Positions 30,886 through 54,640 of a stretch of 64,000 nucleotides of DNA are shown here, one piece after another. The stretch is from Giardia intestinalis. Lineage: Eukaryota. A program made the translations under genes and the position numbers. Position 1 is the stretch's first letter, and each line of letters opens with the position of its first letter. A model generated the notes under the pieces. The model saw only the letters and a list, made by a program, of their open reading frames with translations, was not told the origin of the DNA and ran no database searches. The DNA lies in assembly GCA_000002435.2 (NCBI GenBank), contig CM018793.1; one strand, given 5' to 3'.

Positions 30886-31074
30886 TAGAGGGTCCCCTGC
30901 TGTGGCCTCTACCCCGTCTGTGGCTACCCAGCACGGCACACGGGGGGAGCGCTGTTCCACCCCTGCCTTGGAGGCCCCTGTCTCGACTCGGCCCACAGCA
31001 CCAGAGCGTGGTGGTCTTCCACTCTTGGGCGCCGCACAGCCCGTCTCCGTGCCCAAGCGGCTCACCCCAGGCAC

Positions 31075-34231: not shown

Positions 34232-34337
34232 ATATCTCTTTTGCTTTTTAAATTCCAGGTTTTTGGGACCGAGGGTTCCCGTTAAGGGTTTACTTAGAAG
34301 CAAGCCGAATACAGGATTTTAGAGACCACACCGCAAC

Positions 34338-35948
34338 TCAGTCTTTTCTTTGATCCTTGGCTGGCTTTTTCTCGCAGAGCATGATGGCGTTCCGGCATTC
34401 TTCGTAAGCTTCCGTAGACGCAAACTTGCTTTTATACTTCATAAGACGATTTAGAGGCGTTTGCCCGTTCAATGCAGGTATATTTCCCTCCAGAGGACCC
34501 AATGCTACAATCATGTCCCTGTTCGCCTTCGTGATGGATATCAGTAGACCCGTTTCGCCCTTGGCATCTGGAATTCTTGCTTCGTGCTTGGCAAGCAGGC
34601 GCACTGTATCCACATTAGCTCTCTCTACTGCCATATGAAGCGCTGAGCGACGCTTGCGAGCCGTCAATCCCGATTCGTGAAGGCAAAGAACTCTTGCTGC
34701 GTCATAGTTATTTAGTTGTGCTGCCTTCATGAGGGACGTATACCCATACATGTCTCTAGTCCGTACCTCGTACGGCACGAGCTCCTCTATACAATTAGTA
34801 TGGTTCCCAATCGCCGCCATCATGATCGCAGTTTCATCTCTCATATTCCTTATGCGAACCTCTCTGATCAGTAATCTTACTCCGTCAAGGAATCCTGTTC
34901 TGGCTGCTATCATCAGCGCAGTTGTCCCCGGAGGAAACGATACTGTCTTATCGTCTATATCAAGGACCAAGGTCTTCTCTGTTGCGTGTCCAAGAAACGA
35001 GAGGTTTTCGTTGAGAGCCACAGAATCCTTGTTGTACACTGCATCCATGAGAGGCGTTTTCCCACCTAAGGCAACCGGCTTCTGATATCTTTTCGAGTCT
35101 GCAAGAAAGAGCTCATGCGAGTTAGCCAATGATGTCTTTTTCATAGGTGGCTCTTCACTAGTACTAGTAGTGCATCCATATCTACCAGAGTTTGCCGAGG
35201 AATCGCCATTAGTCAACTGAGTGGGAGTCTTTGGGGCCTCGCCTCCCAACATAGCATGCAGAGAGAGCGCCTGTATGTGGCTCTCCTGTGAATTATAATC
35301 GTCCTGGTCGCTCATGGAAAGATCTATGACAAAAGGGACCATGGAGAAGCAACTAGTGAAGCTGCGCACGTCATCGACACTTGTCAGCCCAAGCTCTACC
35401 GCAGTAAAAAGCGTTCCAGTGTCCTTCCTTAGGTCATATGGGGTTTTTCCGTGAAAGTAGCTGGATAAAACCTTAGACATTCGTTTCAAGGTCAATGTTG
35501 AACTTTGCTCACAAATTTCTGTTAGTAGCTCTACTTCCTTCTCCTGTATGCAGCATTGGATGCGTTTAACTAATTGTACAAAGGCATCAATGATGGAAAT
35601 CTCTGTACACTGGGACCGAACGTATGGGATAAGAGGCAGATAGTCGCCCGGAACAACAATCTTTTCTGGGGATAGAAGAGGTGTACAGCCCTCTGAATGG
35701 ATCAGCATGGACCGTTCCAATATCCCTAGCGCTAATGTAGCTCCCATACCTTCTAAAAATCTCACTTCACGCTTGATAAATAAGGCGGTAAGATCTTCAA
35801 GTGTGGGCATGTATCTCGAGGTTGAATTCGCCCACGCAACACGCGGAAGATCATATATAGCTTTATAGGGAAGTGCAGTTTGTAAAGGTAACTGTTTGTT
35901 AAAGTAGTAGGCAGAGCTTTGTACCGAATTACGCTCCAGCTCTGTCAT
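34338..35948 (-). CDS. Ankyrin-repeat protein (Giardia Protein 21.1-like)
   Basis: The C-terminal half has at least four ankyrin repeats: TALMIAARTGFLDGVRLLI, TAIMMAAIGNHTNCIEEL, TSLMKAAQLNNYDAARVL and SALHMAVERANVDTVRLLAKH. The ATG at 35948 is preceded by TTTTAAAAAGTGG. The tool start at 35993 is GTG. Confidence 0.65.
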   Translation of the reverse strand: MTELERNSVQSSAYYFNKQLPLQTALPYKAIYDLPRVAWANSTSRYMPTLEDLTALFIKREVRFLEGMGATLALGILERSMLIHSEGCTPLLSPEKIVVPGDYLPLIPYVRSQCTEISIIDAFVQLVKRIQCCIQEKEVELLTEICEQSSTLTLKRMSKVLSSYFHGKTPYDLRKDTGTLFTAVELGLTSVDDVRSFTSCFSMVPFVIDLSMSDQDDYNSQESHIQALSLHAMLGGEAPKTPTQLTNGDSSANSGRYGCTTSTSEEPPMKKTSLANSHELFLADSKRYQKPVALGGKTPLMDAVYNKDSVALNENLSFLGHATEKTLVLDIDDKTVSFPPGTTALMIAARTGFLDGVRLLIREVRIRNMRDETAIMMAAIGNHTNCIEELVPYEVRTRDMYGYTSLMKAAQLNNYDAARVLCLHESGLTARKRRSALHMAVERANVDTVRLLAKHEARIPDAKGETGLLISITKANRDMIVALGPLEGNIPALNGQTPLNRLMKYKSKFASTEAYEECRNAIMLCEKKPAKDQRKD

Positions 35949-36212
35949 CCACTTTTTAAAATGCAACACCCTCCATTCGCTGTCGATACCCACTGCTCTG
36001 CATACCTTCTTCTATACGTGCACGCGGTGAAGTGCAACTAACACGCAGAAATTGCCCAATCAGTCATGAATATCAAGAGATAAAATTGTATCTACAAATG
36101 TACCTTAAGCGGCGTAGTACCGCACTTGCTCTATTAAAGCGTGTCACTGTTAGATGGCGATCAACATATAGTAAGCTACTGCTAAACAAGAAGACAAAAT
36201 GCGTATTTCAGA

Positions 36213-36635
36213 ATGACGAGATATCGCGTAACGAGTTTTTTGAGAAAAGAAATGCTTGTTGTCCTCTTAGCCACAGCGACACTTGCGTCTTATGCAGATA
36301 GATATATCCTCAACCCAGGTGGGCATATGTTTGCAACATTCGCCTCGTATGACTTAACAATTGCTACCTCTTCTGATGTGATTAATGTCTTGCCAAGTGG
36401 TCTTTGCGAGGAGACGCCTAGCATAGTTCCACAAGAACAATCATATATTCAAAGCTTGATCCATGAGAGAGAAGCCCTCAGAACCAAAAAGGAGGTGCTT
36501 CAAAAATTCTCACACCAGGCTCCAAAGGCCATCATGGCAATGGATGCAATCCAGCAGAAAATAGATGAAATTGAATCTAAAATACAACAAGCTCCAATCC
36601 TCTATGATATAGTAGACACAGACTTAACGTCTTGA
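36213..36635 (+). CDS. Hypothetical small protein (140 aa) with a signal-like N-terminus and predicted coiled-coil C-terminus
   Basis: An ATG-initiated ORF carries the hydrophobic stretch MLVVLLATATLASYA. The C-terminus is helical and charged: EREALRTKKEVLQKF...IQQKIDEIESKIQQ. It sits in a 700 bp gap between divergent genes. No homolog was recognised. Confidence 0.35.
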   Translation: MTRYRVTSFLRKEMLVVLLATATLASYADRYILNPGGHMFATFASYDLTIATSSDVINVLPSGLCEETPSIVPQEQSYIQSLIHEREALRTKKEVLQKFSHQAPKAIMAMDAIQQKIDEIESKIQQAPILYDIVDTDLTS

Positions 36636-36698
36636 GGCCCATCACAATCGAAATCCCAGTGAATCAAGTAAATTATCAATTAGACCTGGTTCATATAT

Positions 36699-37028
36699 TT
36701 ATTTCTGGGCATTCCCTGCGTCACTCCCTGCAGGATTACTATCGTTAGCAGACACGCAGGGAGCAAGGTTCATAACCAAGACCTCATTTATAATACAAAA
36801 CTCTCCCTTCTGTCCTGGATTGTCCAGGAGACGTGTTGTTGGAAGAGTTTCGCGGTGAATCTGGAAGATGTTATTACCCGCGGTACCAAAGGACAAGTCT
36901 GGAACGTCAAGGTACGAAGGCAGCTTGAGAGGGAGGCGTATTTGTGTGCTAGGAGCCGCAAGCCCAGAGTCTAGAGATAGCAAGTAGTATTCTTCACTCA
37001 CGACATCCTGGGAAACAATCTCCTGCAT
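36699..37028 (-). CDS. Hypothetical small ORF (about 110 aa)
   Basis: The ATG at 37028 (MQEIVSQDVVSEEYYLL...) is divergent from the PP2A-B'' gene. It has no recognisable domain and may be non-coding. Confidence 0.2.
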   Translation of the reverse strand: MQEIVSQDVVSEEYYLLSLDSGLAAPSTQIRLPLKLPSYLDVPDLSFGTAGNNIFQIHRETLPTTRLLDNPGQKGEFCIINEVLVMNLAPCVSANDSNPAGSDAGNAQK

Positions 37029-37103
37029 GCCCCAGATCAAGGTGTTTCGCAATTTTTGATAAGATCTTGTGTCTTCACTTTTTTGAAAGAAAAACCGATT
37101 CCG

Positions 37104-38465
37104 ATGACATCTCTGGGTGCCATGCTAAAGGAATTTGCTGAAAGGCACCCCATCATTGAGCCGACGTATGCTGAAATGCAGAAGCAGATTTCAGCCTTCC
37201 TCCCGCCAATCTCTCCGTCTGTGTCAGTTCCTTTGTTTTCAAACCCCGGACTTCTTTCCTCAAGAGACGACCTTCAGGACACCTTTTATCGCATCAGCCG
37301 CACAGCCACACTGCGAAAGGTCTACGAACCCCTTCAACTCTGTACGATAAATGACCTCATAACGATCGTGGATACGCACACGCCAGCTGATCAGTTGATT
37401 GACTACAGGATTTTCCGTAGGATTCTAGCTGATATCTATCAGCGGAGCCCGATTTACAAGAATATTCTGACAGTTAAGACGTTTCTTGCTTTACCGCGTA
37501 CGAAGGACGTGGCGGCTTATCCTATAAAGACTCTCAAGTTCCACTCTGACGTTGTCAAGCTTTCTATTGTGCGCATTGTTTCTTCAGCCCAAACTCGAAT
37601 TACGCTTACAACGTGCGATGTTGACGGAAAAGGCTTTCTTTTAGAATCCGATGTTGAAAACTATATACTCGATATCTCGCATCTTTATCCACACTTGCAG
37701 GACTGTGACGAAGTGTTTCGCCCGTTCTATCTCTGCACCATCATCAAGCCCTTGTTTTTCTTTCTCGATCCTTATCACCGAAAGCGCATAGCTATATCAG
37801 ATTTGTTAATCAGCCCGTATCTTGACCAAATCTTTGCTAACCCATCTGATCAGCCGCAAGAAGCCCTGGGCACCCTGCAAGGGCCACTCGCACAACGCTA
37901 CTTAACTTGGTTCCATCCTGACGCTGTAATGGATCTCTACACCTCCTACATCAGCGCTGATACCGACCAGGATGGGCTCTTGAGTGATAAAGAGTTAGCA
38001 GCGTTGGCCAAATATAAGTTCACTAGCAGATTTATCAAGGCGTTGCTCTTGACAATTCAAACATTCAACGGCAAAATGGATTACCGTGGCTTCATAGATC
38101 TAATGCTCTGCGTCTCCTTCCCGCGCAGCAAAGCTGCGGCAGTCTATATCTTCAAAATACTAGACTTTAATTGTAAGGGACATCTAACTAGAGACGATGT
38201 GCTATATTTCCTACAGGAAATGGTAGATGGGCTTCAGGGGTACTGCGGCGAGGGCGTGAAGTTTAACGTCGATGACCTTTGTGATGAAGTGTTTGACAGC
38301 ATCTCTCCCAAAAGCAACAGCATGGTTACTCTTTCGGACATAATTAGCTCTCGTAGCGGCGACATTTTGATTACCTTTTTAATTGATCCACTCTTGTTCA
38401 TTGAAAAGGAGTTGCAGCTTCAACAAGGCCACGTGATGATGAGGCCCTTGCCTTTTGAGGTCTAG
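37104..38465 (+). CDS. Protein phosphatase 2A regulatory subunit B'' (PR72/PR130, PPP2R3-type) with EF-hands
   Basis: DLYTSYISADTDQDGLLSDKELAAL aligns to the PR72 EF-hand FWELDTDHDLLIDADDLARH. YIFKILDFNCKGHLTRDDVLYFLQEM...TLSDIISSRSGDILITFLIDPLLFIEKEL aligns to PR72 [26 protein letters not shown]...ITLQDLKRCKLANVFFDTFFNIEKYL. The true ATG is at 37104. The tool start at 37056 is TTG. Confidence 0.75.
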   Translation: MTSLGAMLKEFAERHPIIEPTYAEMQKQISAFLPPISPSVSVPLFSNPGLLSSRDDLQDTFYRISRTATLRKVYEPLQLCTINDLITIVDTHTPADQLIDYRIFRRILADIYQRSPIYKNILTVKTFLALPRTKDVAAYPIKTLKFHSDVVKLSIVRIVSSAQTRITLTTCDVDGKGFLLESDVENYILDISHLYPHLQDCDEVFRPFYLCTIIKPLFFFLDPYHRKRIAISDLLISPYLDQIFANPSDQPQEALGTLQGPLAQRYLTWFHPDAVMDLYTSYISADTDQDGLLSDKELAALAKYKFTSRFIKALLLTIQTFNGKMDYRGFIDLMLCVSFPRSKAAAVYIFKILDFNCKGHLTRDDVLYFLQEMVDGLQGYCGEGVKFNVDDLCDEVFDSISPKSNSMVTLSDIISSRSGDILITFLIDPLLFIEKELQLQQGHVMMRPLPFEV

Positions 38466-38512
38466 AGCATGAGGGGTTATAGAATGCACTGAACCAAACT
38501 GATTCCAAGCTT

Positions 38513-41500
38513 TTAGTCTGATGAACCAGGTCGGCGTTTAAATTTGGTGTCTCTCCACTCCACCAGGATATTGTGGCCAAACATGATCACGGATTTGAGA
38601 TGTTTTAGACGGCCAGTCGACCAAATGAGAGCAATGATGCTAATTGTATAGACAAAGACTACGACGACTAAAACAATCACCACCGTCACAATCCTGTTAT
38701 AGAGGTATGTGTTTATTTGCTTGGACACCGCCTCCATCGCTACCTGAAGAGTGTCACTCATTACTCTAAAGGTTTCTAAGTTGCTTGTGAGGTTGATGTT
38801 ACTTAGAGGCACAAGAAGGTTTAAAATCTGACCTAGAGTGATACTTCCGGTAACGTTGGTGCCATTGGTGCTGTTGATGAGATTGATTGTATAATTAGCA
38901 TTGATTCCGAGAGGACTAATTTGGTCTGCGATATGAGTTATCCTCGTGAGGGCTGGGATACTCAATTCTGTAAGCCTCTCATACAACTTCCTGCAGGACA
39001 CATGACCCGTCGTCACGGATTCGTGTTGGTTCCAATAGAGGAGCGTTGAGTCTATCTCTGCAGAGAATCCTTGGATCCTCTCGCCAAAGCGCACACTGGG
39101 GCTACTAAACTTCAGCACATACTCAGAGCCATAGCAGATTGACTCTAGCATGATACGTAGCAAATGTATATGCTCTGCGTGAAGATCACAGAAAGACTGA
39201 AATCTCTGCGCGCTTTCCTTGATCGCAATCTTCTCTTCCACACTTAAGTTGTCCGTTGACGAGTATGAGTACTTAGATGCATATTCCGGGTGTGTTTCGG
39301 CCTCTGTAATCAGATACTGGTTAATGTAGCGGACGCTTTCTACAAGCATGGGCATGCCCTTTACATAGCTACTTATGCTGTAGTATTTTGCATACATGAA
39401 AATAAGCCCTATGCTCCCCCATAGAAAGAACAGCCCAAAGGTTCCAATAAGTAACGGAACTAGTGTATAGAAGACGATTTCTCCTAAAAAGAGCTGTTTT
39501 GTCCCAACGATTTGCGACGACGCTATCTTGTCAAATAGCTTTCGCACCTTGTCATTCCTATGAAGATGCTTTGCAGCATGCTCATCCATCTGCATGTTAT
39601 ACATGCTGTTCACCATGTGCCCTGTCTGCTCCAGTAGCATCTCGACTTCAATCGCAGAAACCTCCTGTGGAGAGTCTGAAGAACTCGAAGGGCTATCCTT
39701 GAGCATTCTAGCGTACACTGTGTATATGGGAAGGGAAGAAAATACTATACTGATCGATATAGTAACCAGCGTAAGGAGAACACTGCAAATGATTAACAGA
39801 GACCTAACTTCGAGCTTAGAGTCGTGCTCTTTTTGCTTCTGGACAAAGAGAGACATTATGCCATCGTAGAGTCTGCCAAAAGCATACTCCATTCCCATGT
39901 TTGCCTGATCAAGAGTATCTAGATGCATCTGAGCAATAGAATCTAAAATATTAATGTGGCTGTCTGGAGAATCTGCGGTTGGCTGATAGAGGGCTAAAAC
40001 GTAATTGTCTCTGAGATGTTTCTGAATTAAAATTGAAAAGCTTCTTTGCTCTGCAAACGAATAGAATGACGATAGCACTTCCTCGACAGTTCCCTGTGTG
40101 AACCTAGCGTTTCCAAGGTTCTCATTCCATCTAATCAGGGGTATATTCGGCTCTATTAACTTCTTTGCTGCATAGATGTACTCCTGGATGGAAATAGGAA
40201 AATCACTAAGGATGTAAGAGCTGTATGAAGGCATGGAGTTATAGAGCTGGAGCTCAGAGATATACGATGTCTCATTGTATCCGGAAAGCGCAGCATTCAA
40301 CAGGTCTTCCTTCAAGGCAGATATATTGTAGTAATCTTGGCGGTTTAAATGAGGAATGAAGAAGCCGTAGTAGTAGAGAAGCGATAGGCTTTCATGATAT
40401 ATAGTATCTAAGCGGTCTTGTGCCGGAACGAACACGTCTGTTGGTGAGTAGGCAACTGGTTGGTCTAGAAACGTCGCGATGCTGTCTCTTCGATAACGAA
40501 GGTGATAGCTGCTTAATTCATGGAGCGAGCGAATTAAGGCGTATTCTCTATCGATGCGAAATGCATATGCTAGATTAAAACCTGACAAGGAGACCAGCAT
40601 ACAGCCAGCAAGTCCTGCTGAAAAAATTCCGATGATTATCAAAATGTTAATATATTTTCTGATTTTCCCGGAGTTGAACCCGTGACTATGTCCATTAGAG
40701 AAGAGCAAGTGCTTGAAGCTCCAAAAAACATAGAGGCTGCAATAGAGAGCTAGAGGAATAATTGTTAGTAGAAGCACAGACAAGGAGATGATGGACATTA
40801 TGAAGTTAGTCGAAAGATTAAGGTCCACCAAACGGATTGTACCCGATGTATCTTTGAGTATATATTCCGTGAAGTTGCCGAACAGATAGAGCTTCATGGC
40901 ACGTTTCATAGTATCGTACACAGACTCACTGGAATTTTTGGGGCCCAAGTGAATCTCAACCTCTTGGTTAAAGCGCGCAGAGAAGAGATAGAAGAGGCTT
41001 TTGAAGCTTGTCATGTCCAGTATCTTATTTGCATGGTGATATAGGTCGCTGAAAGACCGCACAGCATCCTTGTTGGGACTATCGAAGTAATCTACAAGGA
41101 GAGTTGCTGGGGATCTTGGGTCCAAATAATGCTCCAAAGAATACGTATCATATAAAAGATTGCTGAAAAGTGTCTTCTTTAGGACGCATTCTGCGCTATC
41201 ATTTTCAACATCATAGTTTGTAGCGACGAAGTCGTAGGAGCTATCTTTTGCTTTGATCATTGGCAGCTCCAACATCGTATTTGAAACGTCTATAAAGTAG
41301 CGCAGAAGCTTGTAATATGTCAGGACCGTACTGTCGCTATAGAACGGCTTTACTTCTAAATGGTAATCGAGTTGGCGATGGATAACATTGCCGTCTCTAC
41401 GAGTATACTCAAGAAGTTGAGACGGAGCAACAATGCGGGTTAAGAACAAGAGGGGGGCTCGAAGCACAGTGAACAAATAACGAGGAGCCGTCAACAATGG

Positions 41501-44500
41501 CTCAAACACGAATGTTAATGCGTAGAACAAATTGCTGCATGGAGCTAAAATCCTTGCATAGGAGGTAAGCGGTATGGAGAAGACGTTGTACCTATTGAAC
41601 TCCGAAAACATGCTTTCTAACTCCTCAACATTGAGGTGCTTGACTGCGCTGGTATAGGTTTCTTTGTAAGTAGAAACGTTGGCGCCCATGCGAATGTTCC
41701 AGATCCCTGTTTCAAGATAGTTCAGCATGTGCTGAAAAAAGTGCAACTTCCGTGTCAAGAGGAGCGCAGACTCTGATGACATTACACGGTGGGTCAATGT
41801 CATGGAAATAGACCCCAGCACGTGAACAGATGCCACCGAAAGTACTACAGACAATATGACCAATAGGAGAAACAAACAGATAGGTTGGATGTTGTCTGCT
41901 TTGCGCTTTAAAGCCACGTATCGATAATTCATCTTGGAGTGCCTGGCGTTGATAACATTTATTGCACCTTCAACAATTTGCTTTTCTTCTGCTGATTGTG
42001 TGCTTAATGAACTTAGAAGGTCCAACTCACCCTTCAGCCTCGTGCACGTCTTCTCAAGCGCTTCCAGTCTTGACTTGAAGGATATAAAGATGCCCAAAAA
42101 GGGGCAGCAAATGAACACTCGCTGCATGAATGTTAAGCTGAGTGTGCTATCAGCTTGCTTTTTAATCTCTTTGATTTTTTCTAATACCTTGTGCGCCATC
42201 AGGTTGCAACAAAATCTCCTAGATTGCTTGAAGTGACTGACCCTGTGGCTTGATGATGTTGATCTGGTCTCTGCAATTAGACTCTCATTGTTCAGGTCCT
42301 CTGAGCGAAGGGGTGTGCTAAACCGTGATTTGGTTGTGCTTCTGTCACCCGTATTCTGTGAGCGACTGTCTAGCATAGTAGACAAGATTTCGGGACAATG
42401 ACGATGAGAGGATGATAGAAAAGATTGCTGGTTCTGCTGGCTCGTAGATGCCTCTGCTATTCTTGGCAATTCTCCGTGAGTCTTAACATCGTCTACCTCT
42501 TGAACAGACGGCTCTGCAGACGTTGCTGGGGTCTGCATCGTAGTCCCCGAAGCTCTTGTCTGGAGTTTAGATGTGCTAATACTTGTGCTAAAAGGGGTCA
42601 TCCGAGACTGACTAGATGACTTGTTAATGTGGGGGTCTCTTAAGAGCATCTGCAAGGCATTAATATCGTAAAACTGGATCACAAAGTCACATATCTTAAA
42701 ACAGATCGCGTTAGATAAACGAGAAATGTCATTGTAGTTAAGCTGCTGATAAATGCTGAGAATTCTAAAGAAAACAATGATGAGTTTGCGAAACTGGATG
42801 CTGCGGATAGTTGATATAACGATAACAAGACATAGCGTGCATATCAGTATGTGAATTGGGAGCTCTATGTTGAAAAGGTATTGAACAGCGAGATCCCTTG
42901 CGACTGTGGAATATAGAATCAACTTCTTGACCCCCTGTGGCGCTGTTTCAAAGATATTTTGATCAAATAACGGGGTCGTCGTGAACCTCGAATCATCAAA
43001 CTTGATATGGAACCTCTCGTTGTCGGGCAGATACGTCTTCTGATACAATAGAGACGACAAGATGTCTGCATATTCTCTGAAGGATACGGTATAGGCAAAA
43101 ATTGGGGATAACGCCTTGGACTGCTTAAGCACACTAGGAGTTATGCTAATACGAGGGATATAATTCTCCAGCTGTGCCTGATATTCCCACAGCCAGTGAA
43201 AGGTCTCTGGTATTTGCAATACTTTAGACAGTAGCGGGTTTGTTCGCATAACACTAATATATGAAAAGATTTTGGAGGGGTCTATGATCCCAGAGAGCAA
43301 ATCTTGGAAGGTCTTGCTGGGAGTTGTTAAATTGGTAAAGAAGCTTAAGAAGATTGTAATGTCATCACTATTCTCGTTGTAGAGCTCTGATGGAAATAGA
43401 TTGATCAGCTGAGACTTGTAGAAGGAATCGTTTTCTAGTGCGTTGACATCATTTGTTATCGCATTGCTGCTACCATTGTAAAGTAAGTAGTCCTGCGTGG
43501 AACTTGATTCGTTTCCATTTAGAAACGAGTACTGGGACAGGTGCGTTAAGATCCCGTTGCACAACCCTTCTCCATAAAAGCATGACAAGCTCAGACTCGC
43601 AGTGGCTACAGTCTCATACTGCTTCCGCATCTCCGCGGAGCACTTACCTCTAGTGTTGCTTGTGAGTTTCTTATCAATCGACCAAAGTCTAACGTTGTGT
43701 ATGTATTTATAGAGTAGAAGATCTAAGTAGTCTGACAATGTGAGACCTCTAACCCACAGATCGCCAAGATAAAAATAAATTATACAAAAGAGTACAAAAA
43801 GGAAGAGAGCCGTTCCTGCTAAGGATATGTAAAATGATGCAGTTGTATGGGGAGCGTTATCTAGCTGGTGAGGTAGATTGAACCAACCCTTTAGGGTCCT
43901 CATGCGTTCTGATATGAAGCCTAGATGCACCTTTCTCCCAACAATTGAGATTGCCCGGATTCCATCTGCACGCTTTGCAATCTGCTCTTCAAGTTGTCGC
44001 CTATAGGTTTTGCTCAGATTTGCACCAAAAATATCATTCTCATGAGCGGCTGCATGTTCTTCGTGATTGTGCGAATCAAATAAGGAGCCCAGATACCCTC
44101 TAGCCTTGATGTCAGAATAGTTATCTATCTGCGGGTCATAGTGCTGCGAAATGGGCAAGCCTTCGCTGAATATTTCTGTACTAGAATTGTCATTACCCGC
44201 AGAGCTCTGTGAAGCCGGCGTGTTTCGTCCTGAACTGTGCACGTGGTATAAGCCAGACATGCCGGGACTGTCGTGATGTGCCACGTTGATTCCGCTGTGT
44301 GTATGAACTACAATATTTAAGAAGCTTCTCAAGTGAGGCGTCCTATCTGCTTCTATCGCTTCTGGTATGATCTCTCTGCAAATCTTTGCAAAGCGTGCCG
44401 TATCCTTTGGGCAGAAATTAAAAGAACGAAGAAAACCATAATACATAAACAAAATCGATTGGTCCTTGTGTCGAATTGTAGTTGTGGACGAGAGGACTTT

Positions 44501-47500
44501 TCTTACGATACAGAACTCATTGTAGATTAACTGTAGTACTGTCACAAGGGTCCAGTTTTGCAAGGTAAGAGATTGATGACTCTTTGCTCCGAGAAGATCG
44601 TGATACATCGAGGTTTCCCCCTGGCCCCTAGTTAAGGGCTTGAAAAGTACTATAAACCCAGACAACAATCTAAAAAACCGAAGGAAATTGTTTTTAAATA
44701 GCGTATCCACAAATATGTGCCCAGTATTCCCTACTGTGAGGATGGAGTTGTTGTTATCTGCCGCCTCAAATGTATAGATGTTCTCAATCAAATCGATGAG
44801 TACAACTAATGTCATAATTGAGAAAGTATCTTGTGAAACGCCCCCAACGCGAACAATCTTTGCCTCGGGTCTAATTAGCTCCCCAACCGCCTGAGTGAGG
44901 AGTTTCTCGCTAGTAAGTAACTCGGAAACGGAGTGCTTCTCATCCTTAGAAGAAATACCGGCCAAGTCCCGCTGTACTTGCTCAGCGGTGTAATTACCTG
45001 GGGTGGGTACTGGATGGCCTCTTACTGGTGGTGTTGGTGCTGTTGTTGCGAAAGCCAGGTTTGAACTTGATCGGGACACGGACGAAAAGGCAGAGTCGGT
45101 TATTGCGATCGGTTCTAGCTTAGTTGAACCGAGAATAATTGAGGATGATGTGTCCTGTGTTTGGTCCGAGACCACAGACTCACAATACCCATTTGAATGG
45201 CCCTTATGAGGTTGTTCAGGGACCTTTTCCTGCTTCTTGGCATGCTTCTTCTGCTTTTTTCTCCGCCATATCTGTACCAAGTTTGGCCAGCGGGCTAGCT
45301 TGAATAGGCTGTTTTCAGATCTATTTCCCAAAGGATCTACTATCGTTTTAGTCTTGCGTTTACCGAAAATAAATTTCTGAAATGTGTTTTGGCCTATTGA
45401 AGTATTAATATATGCATAGTATTTAATGAGACGTGAAAGGGCAACTGCCGGAGGAAGATCATAGGTGATCGAGGGCGCAAACCTTGTACTCCATCTTTCC
45501 GTTGTGCCGATACCCAGTTTTCCACCGTCAGTTCCATCATCTACAAGATACACTTCATCTCCAGATACTTCTTTTGGACTGGAGAGTGTGTACTCCGAGT
45601 TCTCAAGAGAGGTGTACTTAATTCTCTGCTCCCGCAAGAAAAGCTGAAAGCTGTGTCCATATGGTGTAGCAGATCCCGGTGAATCATCTAACAATTGAAA
45701 TTGTGAGTGCATAGTACTGCGCCCAGCTAGATGCGCATCTGACCAGCACTTGAACAAAGGGGTGAAAACCTCCCTTTCGCTATACGTGTGTATGGTCACT
45801 AGTGTGCCCTTCTCAAAGCGGCTGTACAGAGTGGGCACGTAGGGAACTATAATCACGGTTCGGTCCTTTCCATCCGGCATCCTCTGTTGCAGATATGTGG
45901 AGTCTGTATCTGCGATCTTAGACCCTTGACCCTGTATCTTAACTGTAAAGGCGGTAAAAGCGGGCACATATGGGAACAGAGTGTCATAAATCAGAGAAGG
46001 ATAGCTCACCTCCTGATAGACAGACTCCAACTCAAAAATCTTGAAGTCAATCTTAGGGAACAAGGAGAGCAAGTGGGTCTTAAAGAAGTACTGCGCAGGC
46101 GATAGATGTTTTCCTGCTAGTGAAATGAAATTGAATAAAGTCGTCGTATCTTGATGGATTGCAGATTGATTTCCAGTCAACTTTTTAGAATTTAGTGCTG
46201 CAAATTGGAGCGTCTTCTGATGAATTTGTTCTTCGTAACGCTTGTTCCCCGTCATCCCAGTGTAATTCAACATAATTTCCAGAATAGTGCCGAAGTATAT
46301 AAAGACCCAGGGGCTTGCAAAGTAGCTCCAGGCGAAGTCCAGGGCCATAGTAAGCTCCGCGCTATGCAATATGCGTATGTGAGAAATGCTTACAGATTTG
46401 GTGAAAATGACAGCCAAGATCTGGCCAAACTCTGCACAGGTCGACGTTATAAATGGTACAGCATACTTCCTTGCCAAATACATTGCAATACAGTGCTCGC
46501 GATAAAGATGTTGGGGCATGAAAAACGAGTCCGTAATGGTCCGGGCCTCGGATGAGACGAGCACAGAACATATATCGATATATCTGAAGAAGCTTGTGCT
46601 GTGCAATTGAGACGCCAGCTCCTTGTAGTCATCCGCCTTTGTGGCGCTGTCATTGAGAAGAAGAAGAATAAACCCCAAGATTGCCATTTCAATCTTCTCC
46701 TGTCTAACAATGAGACAATTAAAAATAAGCTTTATCAAATATCTATCTAGTGCTGTATCCATTCCGTATGTGCGAAGCTCACAAAGTCGCGCAAGCCTGA
46801 TATTGTGGATAGAAAACTGCTCAAGGAGAAACGGTGGCTGCTGTCCGCGTGCATGCAAGGCAATTCCATACTTTTTATTCAAGAGGATTTCCTCTTGTGG
46901 GGTGCCCAAATTAACAAGGTCTATATCCTTAGAAAGGGTCATTCCTCTAACAAACTCGTAGAAGGACAACAAAAGGGACAGAGGATAGTAGATGCATATT
47001 AAGTACAGCAGTATCCCCGGAGGAAAAAGGAAGATCTTGGTGTTGAAGTAAGTTGTGGCCTTTTGTGTTTCTATGCTTAGTTGAATGCATGAGGCTTCAA
47101 ACCTGTGGATTGGAATCCCGTCTCTTTCATTGCAGTTTCTGACAAAGGTGGTTAGAAGCGCATATAGCCTAGATGACGATCTTCCCATCAGGCTGCTTCC
47201 CTCTAGGAACCGCATGAAGGAAATGGAGCGAGTGAAGTGCTCAACGCTGTCATGGTATTTGCTGTACTTATAAAGGACCATGAGTAACGCAATTAGTAGG
47301 GCACTTAGATACGTAATGGCATAGAAGCCTGCACTGGAAAGGCCTGGAGAAATTGTAGAAAAGAAGTACACTAGTGAACTAATTACCGTTATAGATGCAG
47401 TATACACTGTCACAAAGGTCAAGAGGATGTTACTAATAAGTGACGCAAAGATTTCAGCTTGAATTACAAAGAATATTAAGATGAGTGAGTGAAGTACATA

Positions 47501-48139
47501 GATGTAGTTGTCATAAAAAGGGTAGAGCTGTGCAAGAAAAGGCCCCAACGAAAAGAGCTTAATAATGGCCAGGAGCTGGCGAGTATCCAACACTGCAGAA
47601 ATAGTTAATATGTGGACATTGTGAACGTTAAAGCGGGAGATGATATTCAAATCAATGACTTGCTTAATAAGCCACCCCAACGTCAAGATCACGAGCCAGA
47701 GGATCTTCATGGAGGTACGAATATACACGACTTTGGCTATAAACTGACCCATGTTAATTAAAATCGGGGCTTCTGTCACTAAAATTAAATTGGTGCATAG
47801 TCCAAAGCTAAACCAATAGATATATGGATGCCGGAGAAGGGCGCGACTCAGGTAAGCTGTTAAAAGATAAAATAGAACGGCTCCTAGATATGCAAATGCT
47901 GCAACAGAAATAACGACTCTTTGCCAATCATCAATACCACACAGGAATCTGCTGATAGAAAAGGGAAGATGGGTGTGGTCCATCATACCCGGGGCTATGC
48001 ACATTCCTACGATGTTCTGAAAACCGATGAGTACAAAAACTATTAATAGCGGTCCAAGGGTTGTCTTATAGAGGTAATTATTTGGCCGCCAGCGCACAAA
48101 GCCCTTAGAAATAATTAAGAGTAGCCGGCGTAGGCCCAT
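38513..48139 (-). CDS. Very large (3208 aa) multi-pass integral membrane protein, function unknown
   Basis: A single uninterrupted ORF starts at the ATG at 48139, preceded by AAAAAATAAGTGAT. An N-terminal 350-aa block holds at least eight hydrophobic helices. Hydrophobic hairpins then recur about every 450–500 aa, near residues 1000, 1490, 1790, 2240, 2690, 2790 and 3150, separated by large soluble domains. No catalytic motif was recognised. Confidence 0.7.
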   Translation of the reverse strand: MGLRRLLLIISKGFVRWRPNNYLYKTTLGPLLIVFVLIGFQNIVGMCIAPGMMDHTHLPFSISRFLCGIDDWQRVVISVAAFAYLGAVLFYLLTAYLSRALLRHPYIYWFSFGLCTNLILVTEAPILINMGQFIAKVVYIRTSMKILWLVILTLGWLIKQVIDLNIISRFNVHNVHILTISAVLDTRQLLAIIKLFSLGPFLAQLYPFYDNYIYVLHSLILIFFVIQAEIFASLISNILLTFVTVYTASITVISSLVYFFSTISPGLSSAGFYAITYLSALLIALLMVLYKYSKYHDSVEHFTRSISFMRFLEGSSLMGRSSSRLYALLTTFVRNCNERDGIPIHRFEASCIQLSIETQKATTYFNTKIFLFPPGILLYLICIYYPLSLLLSFYEFVRGMTLSKDIDLVNLGTPQEEILLNKKYGIALHARGQQPPFLLEQFSIHNIRLARLCELRTYGMDTALDRYLIKLIFNCLIVRQEKIEMAILGFILLLLNDSATKADDYKELASQLHSTSFFRYIDICSVLVSSEARTITDSFFMPQHLYREHCIAMYLARKYAVPFITSTCAEFGQILAVIFTKSVSISHIRILHSAELTMALDFAWSYFASPWVFIYFGTILEIMLNYTGMTGNKRYEEQIHQKTLQFAALNSKKLTGNQSAIHQDTTTLFNFISLAGKHLSPAQYFFKTHLLSLFPKIDFKIFELESVYQEVSYPSLIYDTLFPYVPAFTAFTVKIQGQGSKIADTDSTYLQQRMPDGKDRTVIIVPYVPTLYSRFEKGTLVTIHTYSEREVFTPLFKCWSDAHLAGRSTMHSQFQLLDDSPGSATPYGHSFQLFLREQRIKYTSLENSEYTLSSPKEVSGDEVYLVDDGTDGGKLGIGTTERWSTRFAPSITYDLPPAVALSRLIKYYAYINTSIGQNTFQKFIFGKRKTKTIVDPLGNRSENSLFKLARWPNLVQIWRRKKQKKHAKKQEKVPEQPHKGHSNGYCESVVSDQTQDTSSSIILGSTKLEPIAITDSAFSSVSRSSSNLAFATTAPTPPVRGHPVPTPGNYTAEQVQRDLAGISSKDEKHSVSELLTSEKLLTQAVGELIRPEAKIVRVGGVSQDTFSIMTLVVLIDLIENIYTFEAADNNNSILTVGNTGHIFVDTLFKNNFLRFFRLLSGFIVLFKPLTRGQGETSMYHDLLGAKSHQSLTLQNWTLVTVLQLIYNEFCIVRKVLSSTTTIRHKDQSILFMYYGFLRSFNFCPKDTARFAKICREIIPEAIEADRTPHLRSFLNIVVHTHSGINVAHHDSPGMSGLYHVHSSGRNTPASQSSAGNDNSSTEIFSEGLPISQHYDPQIDNYSDIKARGYLGSLFDSHNHEEHAAAHENDIFGANLSKTYRRQLEEQIAKRADGIRAISIVGRKVHLGFISERMRTLKGWFNLPHQLDNAPHTTASFYISLAGTALFLFVLFCIIYFYLGDLWVRGLTLSDYLDLLLYKYIHNVRLWSIDKKLTSNTRGKCSAEMRKQYETVATASLSLSCFYGEGLCNGILTHLSQYSFLNGNESSSTQDYLLYNGSSNAITNDVNALENDSFYKSQLINLFPSELYNENSDDITIFLSFFTNLTTPSKTFQDLLSGIIDPSKIFSYISVMRTNPLLSKVLQIPETFHWLWEYQAQLENYIPRISITPSVLKQSKALSPIFAYTVSFREYADILSSLLYQKTYLPDNERFHIKFDDSRFTTTPLFDQNIFETAPQGVKKLILYSTVARDLAVQYLFNIELPIHILICTLCLVIVISTIRSIQFRKLIIVFFRILSIYQQLNYNDISRLSNAICFKICDFVIQFYDINALQMLLRDPHINKSSSQSRMTPFSTSISTSKLQTRASGTTMQTPATSAEPSVQEVDDVKTHGELPRIAEASTSQQNQQSFLSSSHRHCPEILSTMLDSRSQNTGDRSTTKSRFSTPLRSEDLNNESLIAETRSTSSSHRVSHFKQSRRFCCNLMAHKVLEKIKEIKKQADSTLSLTFMQRVFICCPFLGIFISFKSRLEALEKTCTRLKGELDLLSSLSTQSAEEKQIVEGAINVINARHSKMNYRYVALKRKADNIQPICLFLLLVILSVVLSVASVHVLGSISMTLTHRVMSSESALLLTRKLHFFQHMLNYLETGIWNIRMGANVSTYKETYTSAVKHLNVEELESMFSEFNRYNVFSIPLTSYARILAPCSNLFYALTFVFEPLLTAPRYLFTVLRAPLLFLTRIVAPSQLLEYTRRDGNVIHRQLDYHLEVKPFYSDSTVLTYYKLLRYFIDVSNTMLELPMIKAKDSSYDFVATNYDVENDSAECVLKKTLFSNLLYDTYSLEHYLDPRSPATLLVDYFDSPNKDAVRSFSDLYHHANKILDMTSFKSLFYLFSARFNQEVEIHLGPKNSSESVYDTMKRAMKLYLFGNFTEYILKDTSGTIRLVDLNLSTNFIMSIISLSVLLLTIIPLALYCSLYVFWSFKHLLFSNGHSHGFNSGKIRKYINILIIIGIFSAGLAGCMLVSLSGFNLAYAFRIDREYALIRSLHELSSYHLRYRRDSIATFLDQPVAYSPTDVFVPAQDRLDTIYHESLSLLYYYGFFIPHLNRQDYYNISALKEDLLNAALSGYNETSYISELQLYNSMPSYSSYILSDFPISIQEYIYAAKKLIEPNIPLIRWNENLGNARFTQGTVEEVLSSFYSFAEQRSFSILIQKHLRDNYVLALYQPTADSPDSHINILDSIAQMHLDTLDQANMGMEYAFGRLYDGIMSLFVQKQKEHDSKLEVRSLLIICSVLLTLVTISISIVFSSLPIYTVYARMLKDSPSSSSDSPQEVSAIEVEMLLEQTGHMVNSMYNMQMDEHAAKHLHRNDKVRKLFDKIASSQIVGTKQLFLGEIVFYTLVPLLIGTFGLFFLWGSIGLIFMYAKYYSISSYVKGMPMLVESVRYINQYLITEAETHPEYASKYSYSSTDNLSVEEKIAIKESAQRFQSFCDLHAEHIHLLRIMLESICYGSEYVLKFSSPSVRFGERIQGFSAEIDSTLLYWNQHESVTTGHVSCRKLYERLTELSIPALTRITHIADQISPLGINANYTINLINSTNGTNVTGSITLGQILNLLVPLSNINLTSNLETFRVMSDTLQVAMEAVSKQINTYLYNRIVTVVIVLVVVVFVYTISIIALIWSTGRLKHLKSVIMFGHNILVEWRDTKFKRRPGSSD

Positions 48140-49528
48140 ATCACTTATTTTTTAAATCGCGCCCTCACCTTTTTCAATCAAGATAGCACTGTGAGTATAA
48201 CAATTGCTCACGATTGGCAAAGGTATGCAAGGCTACAAAAGATGTACGCATCAGTAACACCTTGTAATTATGCCATAAGAACTTGTACGACTTAGTACTG
48301 CTTTACTGAATCCATAGTGCTATTTGCTCACCAAGCTTTTGCACATACCACTGATACACACGAATGCTGGGTATGTTCTTGCATCTAATTGTACCAATCG
48401 ATATGTAGTTTAGATAGATTGTAATTTTGCGGACGAAGTATCGTCTTCTATGCTGCTTCATACTGCTGCGCATCACCTTGTTGTAGTAGGAATCCTTCTT
48501 TAGGTTTTTGTGTCTATTGCTCTACTCATGCTATACTGAGAGAAACATCGACTGTCTGGAGCAGTGCAAAAAGCTTCCTAGCTGCAGGGTATTTCCGGAG
48601 TTTGAATAAGGAGTGTCTCCGGAGCGTGTCCCTTTCTAGGTTATCACCTGCCATTTCTGGTATACCGCCAAATGATGTACAAACTTTCAAGTCAGTGCAG
48701 CCGGTCTCAAGTTAATAGCAGCAACGCTCCTAGATGATAAAATAGCCCCAGAGGTGTTATGAAGCCAGTACATGGAATAATTTTATCTAAAGGCTCTGCT
48801 ATGCATGCATACTGTCTCAATGGTTCCAAGATAGTTGTGATCACTTGCCTTTAAGTGAGATGCTTGTAGTGCGGTGTGCAACCGCAGCAGACGTTGGCTC
48901 CGCTGCCACGTAGATCTTAAGCAATGATCTGTAGCATCCACAAGTATGCGGCTAGTTTAATATTGATCATAAACTGGAATGCCTTAGTCCGGCTGACTAT
49001 CACAAGTGACTGTGCAAAGATATGGGCACTGAGTAAACGGATATAACTAAAGAGAGCGGAAGTTATAGGGGTGCAATGCTCACTGACAAGTTGGAGGTTG
49101 AGGTACAGAAAGCTTCAGTCACCCTCGAGGTCCGTTCTCTTGTTACCATAAAGCATATCTGACATTGGTAGTAAGTATAGAGAGAAGGTTGTTACCACAA
49201 TACACACTTAGAGTAGGAGGTTTCGATAGACCAACCTTCGAATATGACGTATCCACAAATAAGAGCAAGACTTTCATAGAGAATTGAGGAGGTAGGACAG
49301 CATCAAGGCGCTCAACCTGGGCAAGGTTTATAAAACCTGTAAAGGACAGGTTGCAATCAAACTATCAAGTATTGACGTCAAAACCTTTTACACAATTCCT
49401 CCTTCTATCAAGACACGACACTAGTGTCTACTAAATTGGGCTCGACAAGCATAGCCGTCGTATTTCATGTTAATAAGCTAAAATGTTTTATCGTTTAATT
49501 CTTTGAGTAGCCAAATCAACGTATTGAT

Positions 49529-52765: not shown

Positions 52766-53626
52766 ATGCATTTAGCGCAATCACTTGAAGAGCTCATTGC
52801 ATCGAGAAATGTGCAAGATGCGGTTAAATTTACAGCTGCAATGACCCAGGAGCAAAGGCTCACCATATCAGAAGACTTTCAAGAGCAATATGGCTCAAGT
52901 GTGGGAGATCATATTAGAAAGCTGATGTCACCATCAAGTTCCACCTCTCTTCTAATAAATATGTGGCTTCCTACAAAGATACTCCGTTTGCGTGTGTTAG
53001 AGCGGAACTTTAAGGAGCTCGTGCCTCTGGAGCTAGCGCACTGTGCAATCACCTGTCCCCAAGAAGAATTTGTAGAGATCTGCGACATTTACAATACTAC
53101 GGCGAAAGCCTCTCTGTATGCGGGGATTCGCAGGCAATGCATTGGGCCAGAGCCCTGGAAGTATCTCGTTCAACAATGGGTCACCTTCAATCATGGATCT
53201 ATAAGCAATTTGGTTTTTCTGAGAGACCAAGCGCGTTGTGCAATCGAAAGTGTCGACGGGAGGCTCTTCGTGGACACCATTTTCAGCGCAGATCGTACCG
53301 TTTGGCCAGTTGTCTGCAAAGAGTACGAATGCCAATATGGAGCACCACTGATCAAAGACCTAGCTGTGTTTGGTGAGGATTCTGCCCCTATTCTTTCGTT
53401 TGCATGCTTATTTATCTGTGACCAAACGCTAGCAATCTCTTATTTACTCAACCAGTTTATCATGACAGGTGACAATGATGGCGCAGGAATCGTATCCGCG
53501 CTGTATTCGGAAGAATGGCATGGGGTTCCTATGGCATATGTGCAGTATGGTTCTTTGAAAGAGGACATACGTGCCAACTTCAGCTCCCGATACACTGAGG
53601 CACTTGCAACAGTCTGGAAGATATAG
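52766..53626 (+). CDS. Annexin-like protein, alpha-giardin family (paralog 1 of 3 in tandem)
   Basis: 286 aa. Annexin-repeat-like helices are present, e.g. ISEDFQEQYGSSVGDHIRKLM, compared with the alpha-1 giardin IAKAYVASYGKELPDDIKKAL. The C-terminus ...YTEALATVWKI resembles the alpha-giardin ...ILRTLWRVK. Confidence 0.5.
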   Translation: MHLAQSLEELIASRNVQDAVKFTAAMTQEQRLTISEDFQEQYGSSVGDHIRKLMSPSSSTSLLINMWLPTKILRLRVLERNFKELVPLELAHCAITCPQEEFVEICDIYNTTAKASLYAGIRRQCIGPEPWKYLVQQWVTFNHGSISNLVFLRDQARCAIESVDGRLFVDTIFSADRTVWPVVCKEYECQYGAPLIKDLAVFGEDSAPILSFACLFICDQTLAISYLLNQFIMTGDNDGAGIVSALYSEEWHGVPMAYVQYGSLKEDIRANFSSRYTEALATVWKI

Positions 53627-53680
53627 TAAAGGCGACTGTAGTTTTGACGTTGATTGGCGGTATTGCTATTCCATAAAATT

Positions 53681-54613: not shown

Positions 54614-54640
54614 CGTGGATGGATGTTAGTAAATTAAAAG

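What the first reader, a model, noticed from the sequence alone, without database searches (positions are those of the whole stretch)
38513..48139. 3208-aa modular polytopic membrane protein of unknown function
A single 9.6 kb ORF has a dense N-terminal TM bundle. After it come about seven repeats of a large soluble domain followed by a TM hairpin, roughly every 450–500 aa. No kinase, transporter or channel signature was recognised. It does not end in a Piezo-like PFEW pore module. The architecture suggests a giant receptor or scaffold, possibly specific to diplomonads.
Basis: seen in the sequence. Interest (0 to 1): 0.5.

Follow-up and report, generated by a model that had tools for sequence, protein, structure and literature searches.

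The report
Giardia-only giant orphan membrane protein
This is a real, expressed and strongly conserved Giardia gene (GL50803_96605) for a 3208-residue membrane protein with about 16 membrane spans. It matches no known protein family and its function is still unknown, which is common for Giardia genes.

Summary
The 9.6 kb ORF (window 38513-48139, minus strand) is real. It is Giardia duodenalis GL50803_96605, annotated only as a hypothetical protein.

- **Conservation:** it is one uninterrupted ORF of 3014-3460 aa in six lineages, at 21-85% identity. dN/dS is about 0.1 along its whole length.
- **Expression:** published RNA-seq shows it transcribed, with mRNA about 5-10 fold enriched in cysts.
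- **Architecture:** an N-terminal bundle of about 8 TM helices is followed by 1044 TM-free residues. Then come eight conserved TM helices that bracket four loops of 240-340 aa.
- **Repeats:** Self-BLAST and profile-profile comparison find no sequence repeat.
- **Homology:** Pfam, NCBIfam, PDB profiles, a 1.84-billion-protein HMM search (N-terminal 930 aa) and metagenome and prokaryote scans find nothing outside Giardia-like organisms.
- **Structure:** both AlphaFold2 models failed (pLDDT about 32), so fold-level homology remains untested.

Best reading: a lineage-restricted, probably non-catalytic membrane scaffold or sensor, with helical exoplasmic loops and a large cytosolic platform. This is a low-confidence inference. 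It is an ordinary Giardia orphan of moderate-to-low interest until it is localised or folded.

The parts
38513..48139 (-). Complete ORF, 3208 aa plus stop. It is Giardia duodenalis GL50803_96605, annotated 'hypothetical protein'.
   Evidence: ORF listing and translation. 100% identical database entry. dN/dS 0.08-0.11 between assemblages.
48144..48157 (-). AT-rich stretch (ATTTAAAAAATAAG) 5-18 nt upstream of the ATG. It resembles a Giardia initiator or promoter.
   Evidence: Sequence read. The promoter interpretation rests on general knowledge of Giardia promoters and was not tested.
46940..48139 (-). aa 1-400: N-terminal bundle of 7-8 TM helices, starting near 31, 75, 110, 146, 213, 238, 271 and 375. 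The segment between TM7 and TM8 is the best-conserved block (EHFxRSxSFMRxxEG ... RNxNxxDGxPxHRFEAS).
   Evidence: Hydropathy in six orthologues. Alignment. 26-39% identity to P0006 in this part.
45350..46939 (-). aa 401-930: conserved TM-free domain, mostly helical in a low-confidence model and probably cytosolic. dN/dS is 0.04-0.05.
   Evidence: (secondary structure only).
44870..45349 (-). aa 931-1090: fast-evolving S/K-rich low-complexity linker. dN/dS is 0.30 and the alignment to distant orthologues is mostly gaps.
44345..44869 (-). aa 1091-1265: second conserved TM-free domain. dN/dS is 0.03-0.04, and it aligns to P0005 with E=1e-5.
43829..44344 (-). aa 1266-1437: S/H/G-rich variable linker.
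42806..43828 (-). aa 1438-1778: module 1, made of TM9, loop L1 (303 aa) and TM10.
   Evidence: Both TM helices are conserved in P0005 and P0006. Loop statistics.
41882..42805 (-). aa 1779-2086: cytosolic segment C1. Its flanks are K/R-rich, it has an S/T-rich disordered stretch (about 1836-1990), and a probable coiled coil precedes TM11.
   Evidence: Eight K/R residues in the flanks. Composition. A weak HR1-like coiled-coil match at E=0.022, below the family cut-off.
40745..41881 (-). aa 2087-2465: module 2, made of TM11, loop L2 (341 aa) and TM12. L2 contains a conserved, moderately hydrophobic hairpin at aa ~2195-2235 (window 41435-41557).
39743..40645 (-). aa 2499-2799: module 3, made of TM13, loop L3 (263 aa) and TM14. 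L3 holds the only N-x-S/T sequons conserved across orthologues (N2605 in 5 of 6, N2622 in 6 of 6).
39479..39742 (-). aa 2800-2887: 88-aa connector between modules 3 and 4, inferred to be cytosolic.
38624..39478 (-). aa 2888-3172: module 4, made of TM15 (a long helix of about 25-29 residues), loop L4 (241 aa) and TM16.
38516..38623 (-). aa 3173-3208: basic C-terminal tail (8 K/R in 36 aa), inferred to be cytosolic.
   Evidence: The assignment uses the positive-inside rule and is an inference.

Best explanation
**Shown**
- GL50803_96605 is a genuine single-copy gene. It is transcribed and under strong purifying selection.
- It encodes a membrane protein of about 16 passes, found only in Giardia and two Giardia-like relatives.
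- It has no sequence-detectable relative in any known family.

**Inferred from hydropathy, charge bias and conserved sequons**
- Both termini are cytosolic.
- An 8-TM N-terminal bundle anchors about 1,000 residues of cytosolic conserved helical domains and disordered linkers.
- The C-terminal 1,770 residues cross the membrane eight more times.
- Those crossings display four loops of 240-340 aa (L1-L4) on the exoplasmic face. They are joined on the cytosolic side by a 308-aa S/T-rich and coiled-coil segment, a 33-aa connector and an 88-aa connector.

**Speculative commitment**
- No catalytic, nucleotide-binding or transporter signature exists, and the loops are Cys-poor and predicted helical.
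- I therefore think it most likely acts as a non-enzymatic membrane scaffold or sensor.
- In this picture the exoplasmic helical bundles are formed by extension of the flanking TM helices. They couple mechanically to a large cytosolic platform.
- Its main role would fall in the cyst-to-excyzoite window, where its mRNA is about 5-10 fold enriched.
For: **Real gene**
- Intact ORFs of 3014-3460 aa occur in six lineages and are collinear end to end.
- dN/dS is 0.106 and 0.076 overall and below 0.17 in every structured module.
- An AT-rich initiator-like stretch lies just upstream of the ATG.
- RNA-seq log2 CPM is 7.8-8.5 in trophozoites and encysting cells, 10.2-11.2 in cysts, and about 8 in excyzoites, in three replicates (PMC8700996 Table S1).

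**Architecture**
- The hydrophobic segments sit at the same alignment positions in all three deep lineages.

**Topology**
- The N-terminus (6 K/R, 0 D/E), C1 flanks (8 K/R), the 2466-2498 connector (4 K/R, 0 D/E) and the tail (8 K/R) are all basic.
- The only sequons conserved across orthologues lie in L3.

**Orphan status**
- Pfam, NCBIfam and PDB profile searches give nothing.
- The 1.84-billion-protein hmmsearch with the N-terminal profile returns only P0001, P0005 and P0006.
- Word-indexed searches of 5.8 billion proteins return only Giardia sequences.
- Metagenome and prokaryote scans are empty.

**Helical loops**
- DSSP of the C-terminal model shows long helices running out of TM13, TM14, TM15 and TM16. 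This model has low confidence.
Against: - No localisation, proteomic or phenotypic data were found. The gene is absent from the organelle proteomics supplement searched and from every main text searched.
- Both AlphaFold2 models are unusable (pLDDT 32.2 and 32.6). The helical-loop picture and the whole 'scaffold or sensor' idea therefore rest on absence of evidence for anything else.
- Charge bias is ambiguous for L3 and L4 (6 and 4 K/R in their flanks) and for the N-terminal bundle.
- Only the N-terminal 930 aa were searched exhaustively. The middle and C-terminal parts were searched only through word-indexed or pattern-based methods.
- Cyst enrichment is in relative CPM and is shared by the adjacent rows of the table. 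It may reflect regional regulation or mRNA stability rather than a specific role.
Confidence: 0.4

Rival explanations
1. It is an extremely diverged orthologue of a conserved eukaryotic polytopic protein. Candidates include Piezo-like, Prominin/TTYH-like, Pecanex-like, NDC1-like nuclear-envelope proteins, and RND/NPC1-like proteins. Giardia's fast sequence evolution would have erased the sequence signal, so only a fold comparison would reveal the relationship.
For: - Giardia proteins are notoriously divergent. In PMC6312909, 3,251 of the 4,901 proteins modelled were 'hypothetical'.
- The alternating pattern of TM, large loop, TM, short connector, TM, large loop in the C-terminal half resembles the Prominin/TTYH and sensor-loop topologies.
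- A loop of about 240 aa between the last two TM helices recalls the position of Piezo's cap.
- Fold-level homology could not be tested, because both models have pLDDT of about 32.
Against: - No Pfam family of any of these proteins matches at E<=10 in any of six orthologues or in any segment.
- hhalign of the C-terminal profile against human PROM1 gives probability 0.2%.
- There are 16-18 hydrophobic segments rather than about 38, with a 1,044-aa TM-free gap, and no PFEW motif.
- The exhaustive N-terminal profile search found no bridging sequence in any other eukaryote.
Confidence: 0.25
2. It is a channel or transporter. Either the conserved 8-TM N-terminal bundle is a transport or pore domain, or the four TM-loop-TM units assemble around a central pore as a covalently linked pseudo-tetramer. 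The exoplasmic loops would act as a gate or sensor.
For: - Conserved polar or helix-breaking residues lie in or next to the N-terminal helices. Q41, T122, P125, K159, S233 and S249 are invariant in all six sequences.
- There are four topologically similar two-TM units.
- The N-terminal bundle is the best-conserved region.
Against: - No transporter or channel family matches.
- The two halves of the bundle show no internal duplication, as many transporters would (hhalign probability 0.1%).
- The four units show no mutual sequence similarity.
- Very few charged residues are conserved inside the TM helices.
Confidence: 0.2
3. It is a gene-model artefact: a chance long ORF, or several genes or a pseudogene read through as one.
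For: None beyond the unusual length and the lack of annotation.
Against: - A 3208-codon stop-free frame in 44% GC DNA cannot arise by chance.
- The same single ORF exists in assemblages A, B and E, in a fourth G. duodenalis-like lineage, and in two distant relatives.
- dN/dS is about 0.1 in every module.
- The gene is transcribed.
Confidence: 0.02

Closest known systems
Prominin (CD133) / Tweety-homologue (TTYH) membrane proteins
   Same: TM helices alternate with large exoplasmic loops of about 250-300 aa, joined by short cytosolic connectors. The loops are predicted helical, at low confidence. There is no catalytic domain.
   Different: - These families have 5 TM helices and about 400-900 aa, against about 16 TM helices and 3208 aa here.
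- PF05478 and PF04906 give no match.
- hhalign against human PROM1 gives probability 0.2%.
- They lack the N-terminal 8-TM bundle and the 1,000-aa cytosolic region.
- The resemblance is topological only.
Piezo mechanosensitive channels
   Same: Both are giant (>2,500 aa) multi-pass eukaryotic membrane proteins. In both, a loop of about 240 aa lies between the last two TM helices.
   Different: - Piezo has about 38 TM helices in nine 4-TM units. This protein has 16-18 hydrophobic segments and a 1,044-aa TM-free gap.
- There is no PF(X2)E(X6)W motif.
- No Piezo Pfam family matches.
RND-type / sterol-sensing-domain proteins (Patched, NPC1, Dispatched, SCAP)
   Same: Both have large exoplasmic loops inserted between TM helices of a polytopic protein.
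   Different: - Neither the Patched nor the sterol-sensing Pfam family matches.
- The TM arrangement is not the (1+5)x2 pattern.
- Here each loop is bracketed by single helices.
Pecanex (giant ER multi-pass proteins of unknown biochemical function)
   Same: Both are very large polytopic proteins with long low-complexity cytosolic regions and no catalytic domain.
   Different: - Pecanex_C (PF05041) does not match.
- From my own knowledge, Pecanex TM helices sit in the middle of the protein. They do not lie at the extreme N-terminus and in the C-terminal half, as they do here.
Bacterial chemoreceptor / histidine-kinase periplasmic sensor modules (TM, helical bundle, TM)
   Same: The unit architecture matches: TM helix, alpha-helical exoplasmic loop, TM helix.
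   Different: - No HAMP, kinase or methyl-accepting output domain is present.
- There are four units in one eukaryotic chain.
- Neither Pfam nor NCBIfam matches.

Membership tests
Piezo | Sequence match to the Piezo Pfam families | tested here: not met
   hmmscan against Pfam-A at E<=10 gave no Piezo family. This covered the whole protein, ten segments and six orthologues.
Piezo | About 38 TM helices arranged as repeated 4-TM units | tested here: not met
   There are 16-18 conserved hydrophobic segments, and residues 394-1437 are TM-free.
Piezo | C-terminal pore module with the PF(X2)E(X6)W motif | tested here: not met
   A regex search for P[FYW]EW and PFE found nothing.
Prominin / TTYH | Sequence match to PF05478 (Prominin) or PF04906 (Tweety) | tested here: not met
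   No hit at E<=10.
Prominin / TTYH | Profile similarity to a bona fide member | tested here: not met
   hhalign of alignment A3 (aa 2075-3208, 5 sequences) against human PROM1 gave probability 0.2% and E=0.25.
Prominin / TTYH | Five-TM topology with two large exoplasmic loops formed by extended TM helices | tested here: inconclusive
   The C-terminal six TM helices with three loops of 240-340 aa alternate in a similar way. The helix extensions appear only in a model with pLDDT 33.
Prominin / TTYH | Shared three-dimensional fold | not testable with these tools
   Both AlphaFold2 jobs gave pLDDT of about 32. Foldseek on those models returned only noise, with best E-values of 0.98 and 1.7.
RND / Patched / NPC1 (sterol-sensing domain) | Patched or sterol-sensing Pfam match and the (1+5)x2 TM arrangement | tested here: not met
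   No Pfam hit. The TM spacing is incompatible.
Pecanex | Conserved Pecanex_C domain (PF05041) | tested here: not met
   No hit at E<=10.
Giardia VSP / high-cysteine membrane proteins | Cys-rich ectodomain with many CXXC motifs and a PF03302 match | tested here: not met
   The protein is 1.2% Cys with one CXXC and has no PF03302 hit. Two neighbouring ORFs in the same window hit PF03302 at 1e-42 and 1e-83.
Receptor kinases / cyclases / ABC transporters | A recognisable catalytic or nucleotide-binding domain | tested here: not met
   No Pfam or NCBIfam domain of any kind. The PDB profile search found nothing below E=0.4.

The most novel reading that the evidence does not exclude
The protein founds a new class of giant membrane proteins confined to Giardia. 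An 8-TM bundle would be fused to four non-homologous TM, helical ectodomain, TM units that assemble into one exoplasmic sensing or gating structure. That structure could, for example, sense excystation cues such as acid, bile or protease, or could conduct ions, and would signal through the 1,400-aa cytosolic platform. With no host counterpart, it would be a parasite-specific surface target.
Probability: 0.12. Interest if true: 0.65.

Novelty: categorically new. Interest (0 to 1): 0.3.

Why it matters
If the protein proves to be a stage-specific surface or endomembrane machine of Giardia, it would be parasite-specific with no host homologue. That would make it useful as a drug, vaccine or diagnostic target. 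It would also open a view onto how a highly reduced eukaryote builds membrane functions from lineage-specific parts.

For now its importance is modest.
- 'New' here means unclassifiable by every sequence method tried. It does not mean a demonstrated new mechanism.
- Most Giardia genes share that status: 3,251 of the 4,901 proteins modelled in PMC6312909 were 'hypothetical'.
- The practical value of this work is a corrected architecture, proof that the gene is real and constrained, a narrowed taxonomic range, and a cyst-enriched expression pattern to guide experiments.

Tried and rejected
1. **Internal repeats.** Self-BLAST and hhalign of all module pairs, in local and global mode, with 5- and 6-sequence profiles, found none. 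The two apparent hits are slice overlaps.
2. **AlphaFold2.** Models of aa 1-930 and aa 2075-3208, each with a 5-sequence alignment, gave pLDDT 32.2 and 32.6. Both are unusable.
   - Foldseek against the PDB on both returned only long-helix noise.
   - I left the third fold-search job unused, because no usable model existed.
3. **Deeper homologue collection.** Three word-indexed searches found only Giardia sequences.
   - The exhaustive HMM search added one sequence, P0006.
   - Two metagenome scans and one prokaryote-genome scan were empty.
4. **Family libraries.** I ran Pfam on the whole protein, ten segments and six orthologues, and also ran NCBIfam. The only sub-threshold matches are noise or coiled-coil composition: DUF4029, Lsr2, HR1_TOCA at E=0.022, PARM, TMEM132_C and DUF3069.
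5. **PDB profile searches.** The best E-value was 0.46.
6. **Prominin hypothesis.** Rejected at the sequence level. A PDB search with PROM1 also found no solved relative to use.
7. **Literature.** No main-text mention exists under any locus tag.
   - The gene is absent from the supplements held for PMC3986054 (organelle proteomics), PMC7641422, PMC9928461 and PMC6312909.
   - PMC6312909 modelled only proteins shorter than 1,500 aa.
   - PMC12472542 has no supplements held.
8. **Synteny with the distant orthologues.** None of ten window neighbours occurs on L001 or L002.
9. **Source organisms of P0005 and P0006.** Not determined. The SRA run numbers appear in no paper. The only clue is that L002's G+C of 54.6% matches the 54.7% reported for G. 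muris.
Full report
**The observation.** The window is Giardia DNA. Its first 19,832 bases are N. The neighbourhood carries VSP genes, alpha-giardin (annexin) genes, a protein kinase and an ankyrin-repeat protein. An ATG-to-TAA ORF of 3208 codons lies at 38513-48139 on the minus strand, and no other ORF of 150 aa or more overlaps it. It is 100% identical to 'hypothetical protein GL50803_0096605 [Giardia duodenalis]'. An AT-rich stretch (ATTTAAAAAATAAG) ends 4 nt before the ATG. From my own knowledge, that is the usual look of a Giardia initiator.

**Is it a real single gene?** Full-length orthologues exist in several lineages:
- assemblage E (P0002, 85% identity);
- assemblage B (P0003 and cluster members named GL50581_228 and GSB_153914, 70%);
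- a fourth G. duodenalis-like lineage (P0004, 69%);
- two much more distant relatives known only from unannotated SRA assemblies: P0005 (3460 aa) and P0006 (3014 aa), at 21-26% identity.

All are single uninterrupted ORFs, and they are collinear from the first TM helix to the C-terminal tail. Codon-aligned Nei-Gojobori estimates give dN/dS of 0.106 (A vs E) and 0.076 (A vs B). Each structured module scores 0.03-0.16, and only the 931-1090 linker reaches 0.30. Table S1 of PMC8700996 lists GL50803_96605 at log2 CPM 7.8-8.5 in trophozoites and throughout encystation. It rises to 11.2, 10.3 and 10.2 in cysts and returns to about 8 in excyzoites. A chance ORF, a pseudogene or a fusion of genes is therefore excluded for practical purposes.

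**Anatomy.** I computed Kyte-Doolittle hydropathy (19-residue window) on each orthologue and averaged it over the three deep lineages.
- The N-terminal bundle has hydrophobic helices near 31, 75, 110, 146, 213, 238, 271 and 375.
- Residues 394-1437 have no convincing TM segment. The 1106-1124 peak contains D and E.
- Eight strong, positionally conserved helices start at 1438, 1760, 2087, 2447, 2499, 2781, 2888 and 3154.
- A weaker conserved hydrophobic hairpin at about 2195-2235 is stronger in P0005 and P0006.

Basic residues concentrate in the N-terminus, the flanks of 1779-2086, the 2466-2498 connector and the C-terminal tail. The only N-x-S/T sequons conserved across orthologues (N2605, N2622) lie in the 2518-2780 loop. 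By the positive-inside rule, I infer that both termini are cytosolic. I also infer that the four loops L1 (1457-1759), L2 (2106-2446), L3 (2518-2780) and L4 (2913-3153) are exoplasmic. The charge signal is ambiguous for L3, L4 and parts of the N-terminal bundle, so this remains an inference.

The TM-free cytosolic mass holds two conserved domains (401-930 and 1091-1265) and three fast-evolving low-complexity stretches. Conservation is highest in the N-terminal 600 residues, especially the blocks EHFxRSxSFMRxxEG and RNxNxxDGxPxHRFEAS between TM7 and TM8.

**The repeat claim.** Spacing between successive TM helices is 322, 327, 360, 52, 282, 107 and 266 residues, and only 2447/2499 is a tight hairpin. 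Self-BLAST finds nothing. hhalign of every module profile against every other gives probabilities below 2%, with 5 or 6 sequences and in local or global mode. The only higher values come from overlapping slice ends. The two halves of the N-terminal bundle are not detectably duplicated either. What repeats is a topological unit (TM, loop of 240-340 aa, TM) four times, not a sequence.

**Search for relatives and known families.**
- Pfam-A gives no family at E<=1 for the whole protein.
- At E<=10, all six orthologues and ten segments give only isolated sub-threshold noise.
- NCBIfam gives nothing.
- PDB profile searches give nothing better than E=0.46.
- An exhaustive hmmsearch of 1.84 billion representative proteins, using the 930-position N-terminal profile, returns only P0001, P0005 and P0006.
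- Three word-indexed searches of 5.8 billion proteins return only Giardia sequences.
- Two metagenome scans and one scan of 185,579 prokaryotic genomes return nothing.

No relative from any organism other than Giardia and the two Giardia-like assemblies surfaced in these libraries. The contig carrying P0006 has 54.6% G+C, close to the 54.7% published for G. muris, but the source organisms remain unidentified. One caveat applies: only the N-terminal 930 residues received the exhaustive search.

**Structure.** They gave mean pLDDT of 32.2 and 32.6, with no residue above 50. Foldseek against the PDB with these models gave only long-helix noise, with best E-values of 0.98 and 1.7. The secondary-structure strings suggest that the loops are largely helical. 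They also suggest that long helices run out of TM13-TM16 into the loops. At this confidence that is a hint, not a result.

**Specific candidates.**
- **Piezo:** the TM count is wrong, there is no 4-TM periodicity, there is no PFEW motif, and no Pfam family matches.
- **Prominin/TTYH:** the alternation of large loops and short connectors is similar, but PF05478 and PF04906 do not match. hhalign of the C-terminal profile against human PROM1 gives 0.2% probability.
- **RND/NPC1, Pecanex, VSP/HCMP and catalytic receptors:** each fails its defining sequence test.

None of these families can claim the protein. The Prominin-like and sensor-loop resemblances are analogies of topology only.

**Most likely function.** I keep three levels apart.
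- **Shown:** it is a real, constrained, transcribed gene that is cyst-enriched, lineage-restricted and encodes a polytopic membrane protein.
- **Inferred:** both termini are cytosolic, four loops are exoplasmic, and about 1,450 residues lie in the cytosol.
- **Speculative:** it is a non-catalytic scaffold or sensor whose exoplasmic helical loops couple to a cytosolic platform, acting mainly around the cyst-to-excyzoite transition (confidence about 0.4).

The rivals are a diverged member of a known family that only a fold comparison could reveal (0.25), a channel or transporter (0.2), and an artefact (0.02).

**Verdict.** By exclusion, the protein belongs to no known family. In Giardia that is the rule rather than the exception, and no localisation or phenotype data exist. 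I rate interest at 0.3. The most novel reading still open is a Giardia-only giant sensor or channel for excystation, at probability about 0.12.

Noticed in passing
window 1-19832: The first 19,832 bases of the window are all N. Real sequence starts at 19833.
   Followed up: no
window ~32600-48139 (rows GL50803_27836, 20315, 27835, 17157 and 96605 of PMC8700996 Table S1): Five consecutive table rows, ending with this gene, all rise about 1.8-4.8 log2 CPM in cysts. Most of the rows that follow fall. If the table follows chromosome order, these are the kinase, ankyrin-repeat, small-ORF and EF-hand neighbours, which would suggest a cyst-enriched gene neighbourhood. I did not verify the mapping of IDs to ORFs.
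   Followed up: partly
window 48140-49528: A 1.39 kb gap upstream of the gene has no ORF of 60 aa or more. The published median Giardia intergenic length is 81 bp. The gap is collinear with, and 68% identical to, the equivalent 1.43 kb gap in assemblage E, and it has no Rfam match. Its content is unexplained.
   Followed up: partly
window 37056-38465 (+): A gene for an EF-hand protein converges on the 3' end of the giant gene, with 47 nt between the two stop codons. This pairing is kept in assemblages A, B and E, but not next to the distant orthologues.
   Followed up: partly
window 25495-28569 and 28639-31074 (-): Two tandem variant-specific surface protein genes match Pfam VSP at 1e-84 and 1e-42. 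They lie in the most GC-rich part of the window, up to 62%.
   Followed up: no
window 52766-55738 (+): Three tandem annexin / alpha-giardin genes.
   Followed up: no
window 55986-62186 (+): A 2066-aa ORF has an ASH / CFAP65 / HYDIN-type Ig-like domain near its N-terminus. It is probably a flagellar protein.
   Followed up: no
L001 2646-10004 and L002 1-7917: In both distant relatives the orthologue sits beside another very large unannotated ORF. In L001 this is a 2452-aa ORF whose end overlaps the orthologue's start by 4 nt. In L002 it is a 3504-aa ORF on the opposite strand. Neither has a Pfam hit on record.
   Followed up: no
window 41435-41557 (aa ~2195-2235, inside loop L2): A proline-containing, moderately hydrophobic helix-turn-helix lies here. 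It falls below the TM threshold in G. duodenalis but above it in P0005 and P0006. It could be a re-entrant hairpin or two extra TM helices. Topological parity is unaffected either way.
   Followed up: partly
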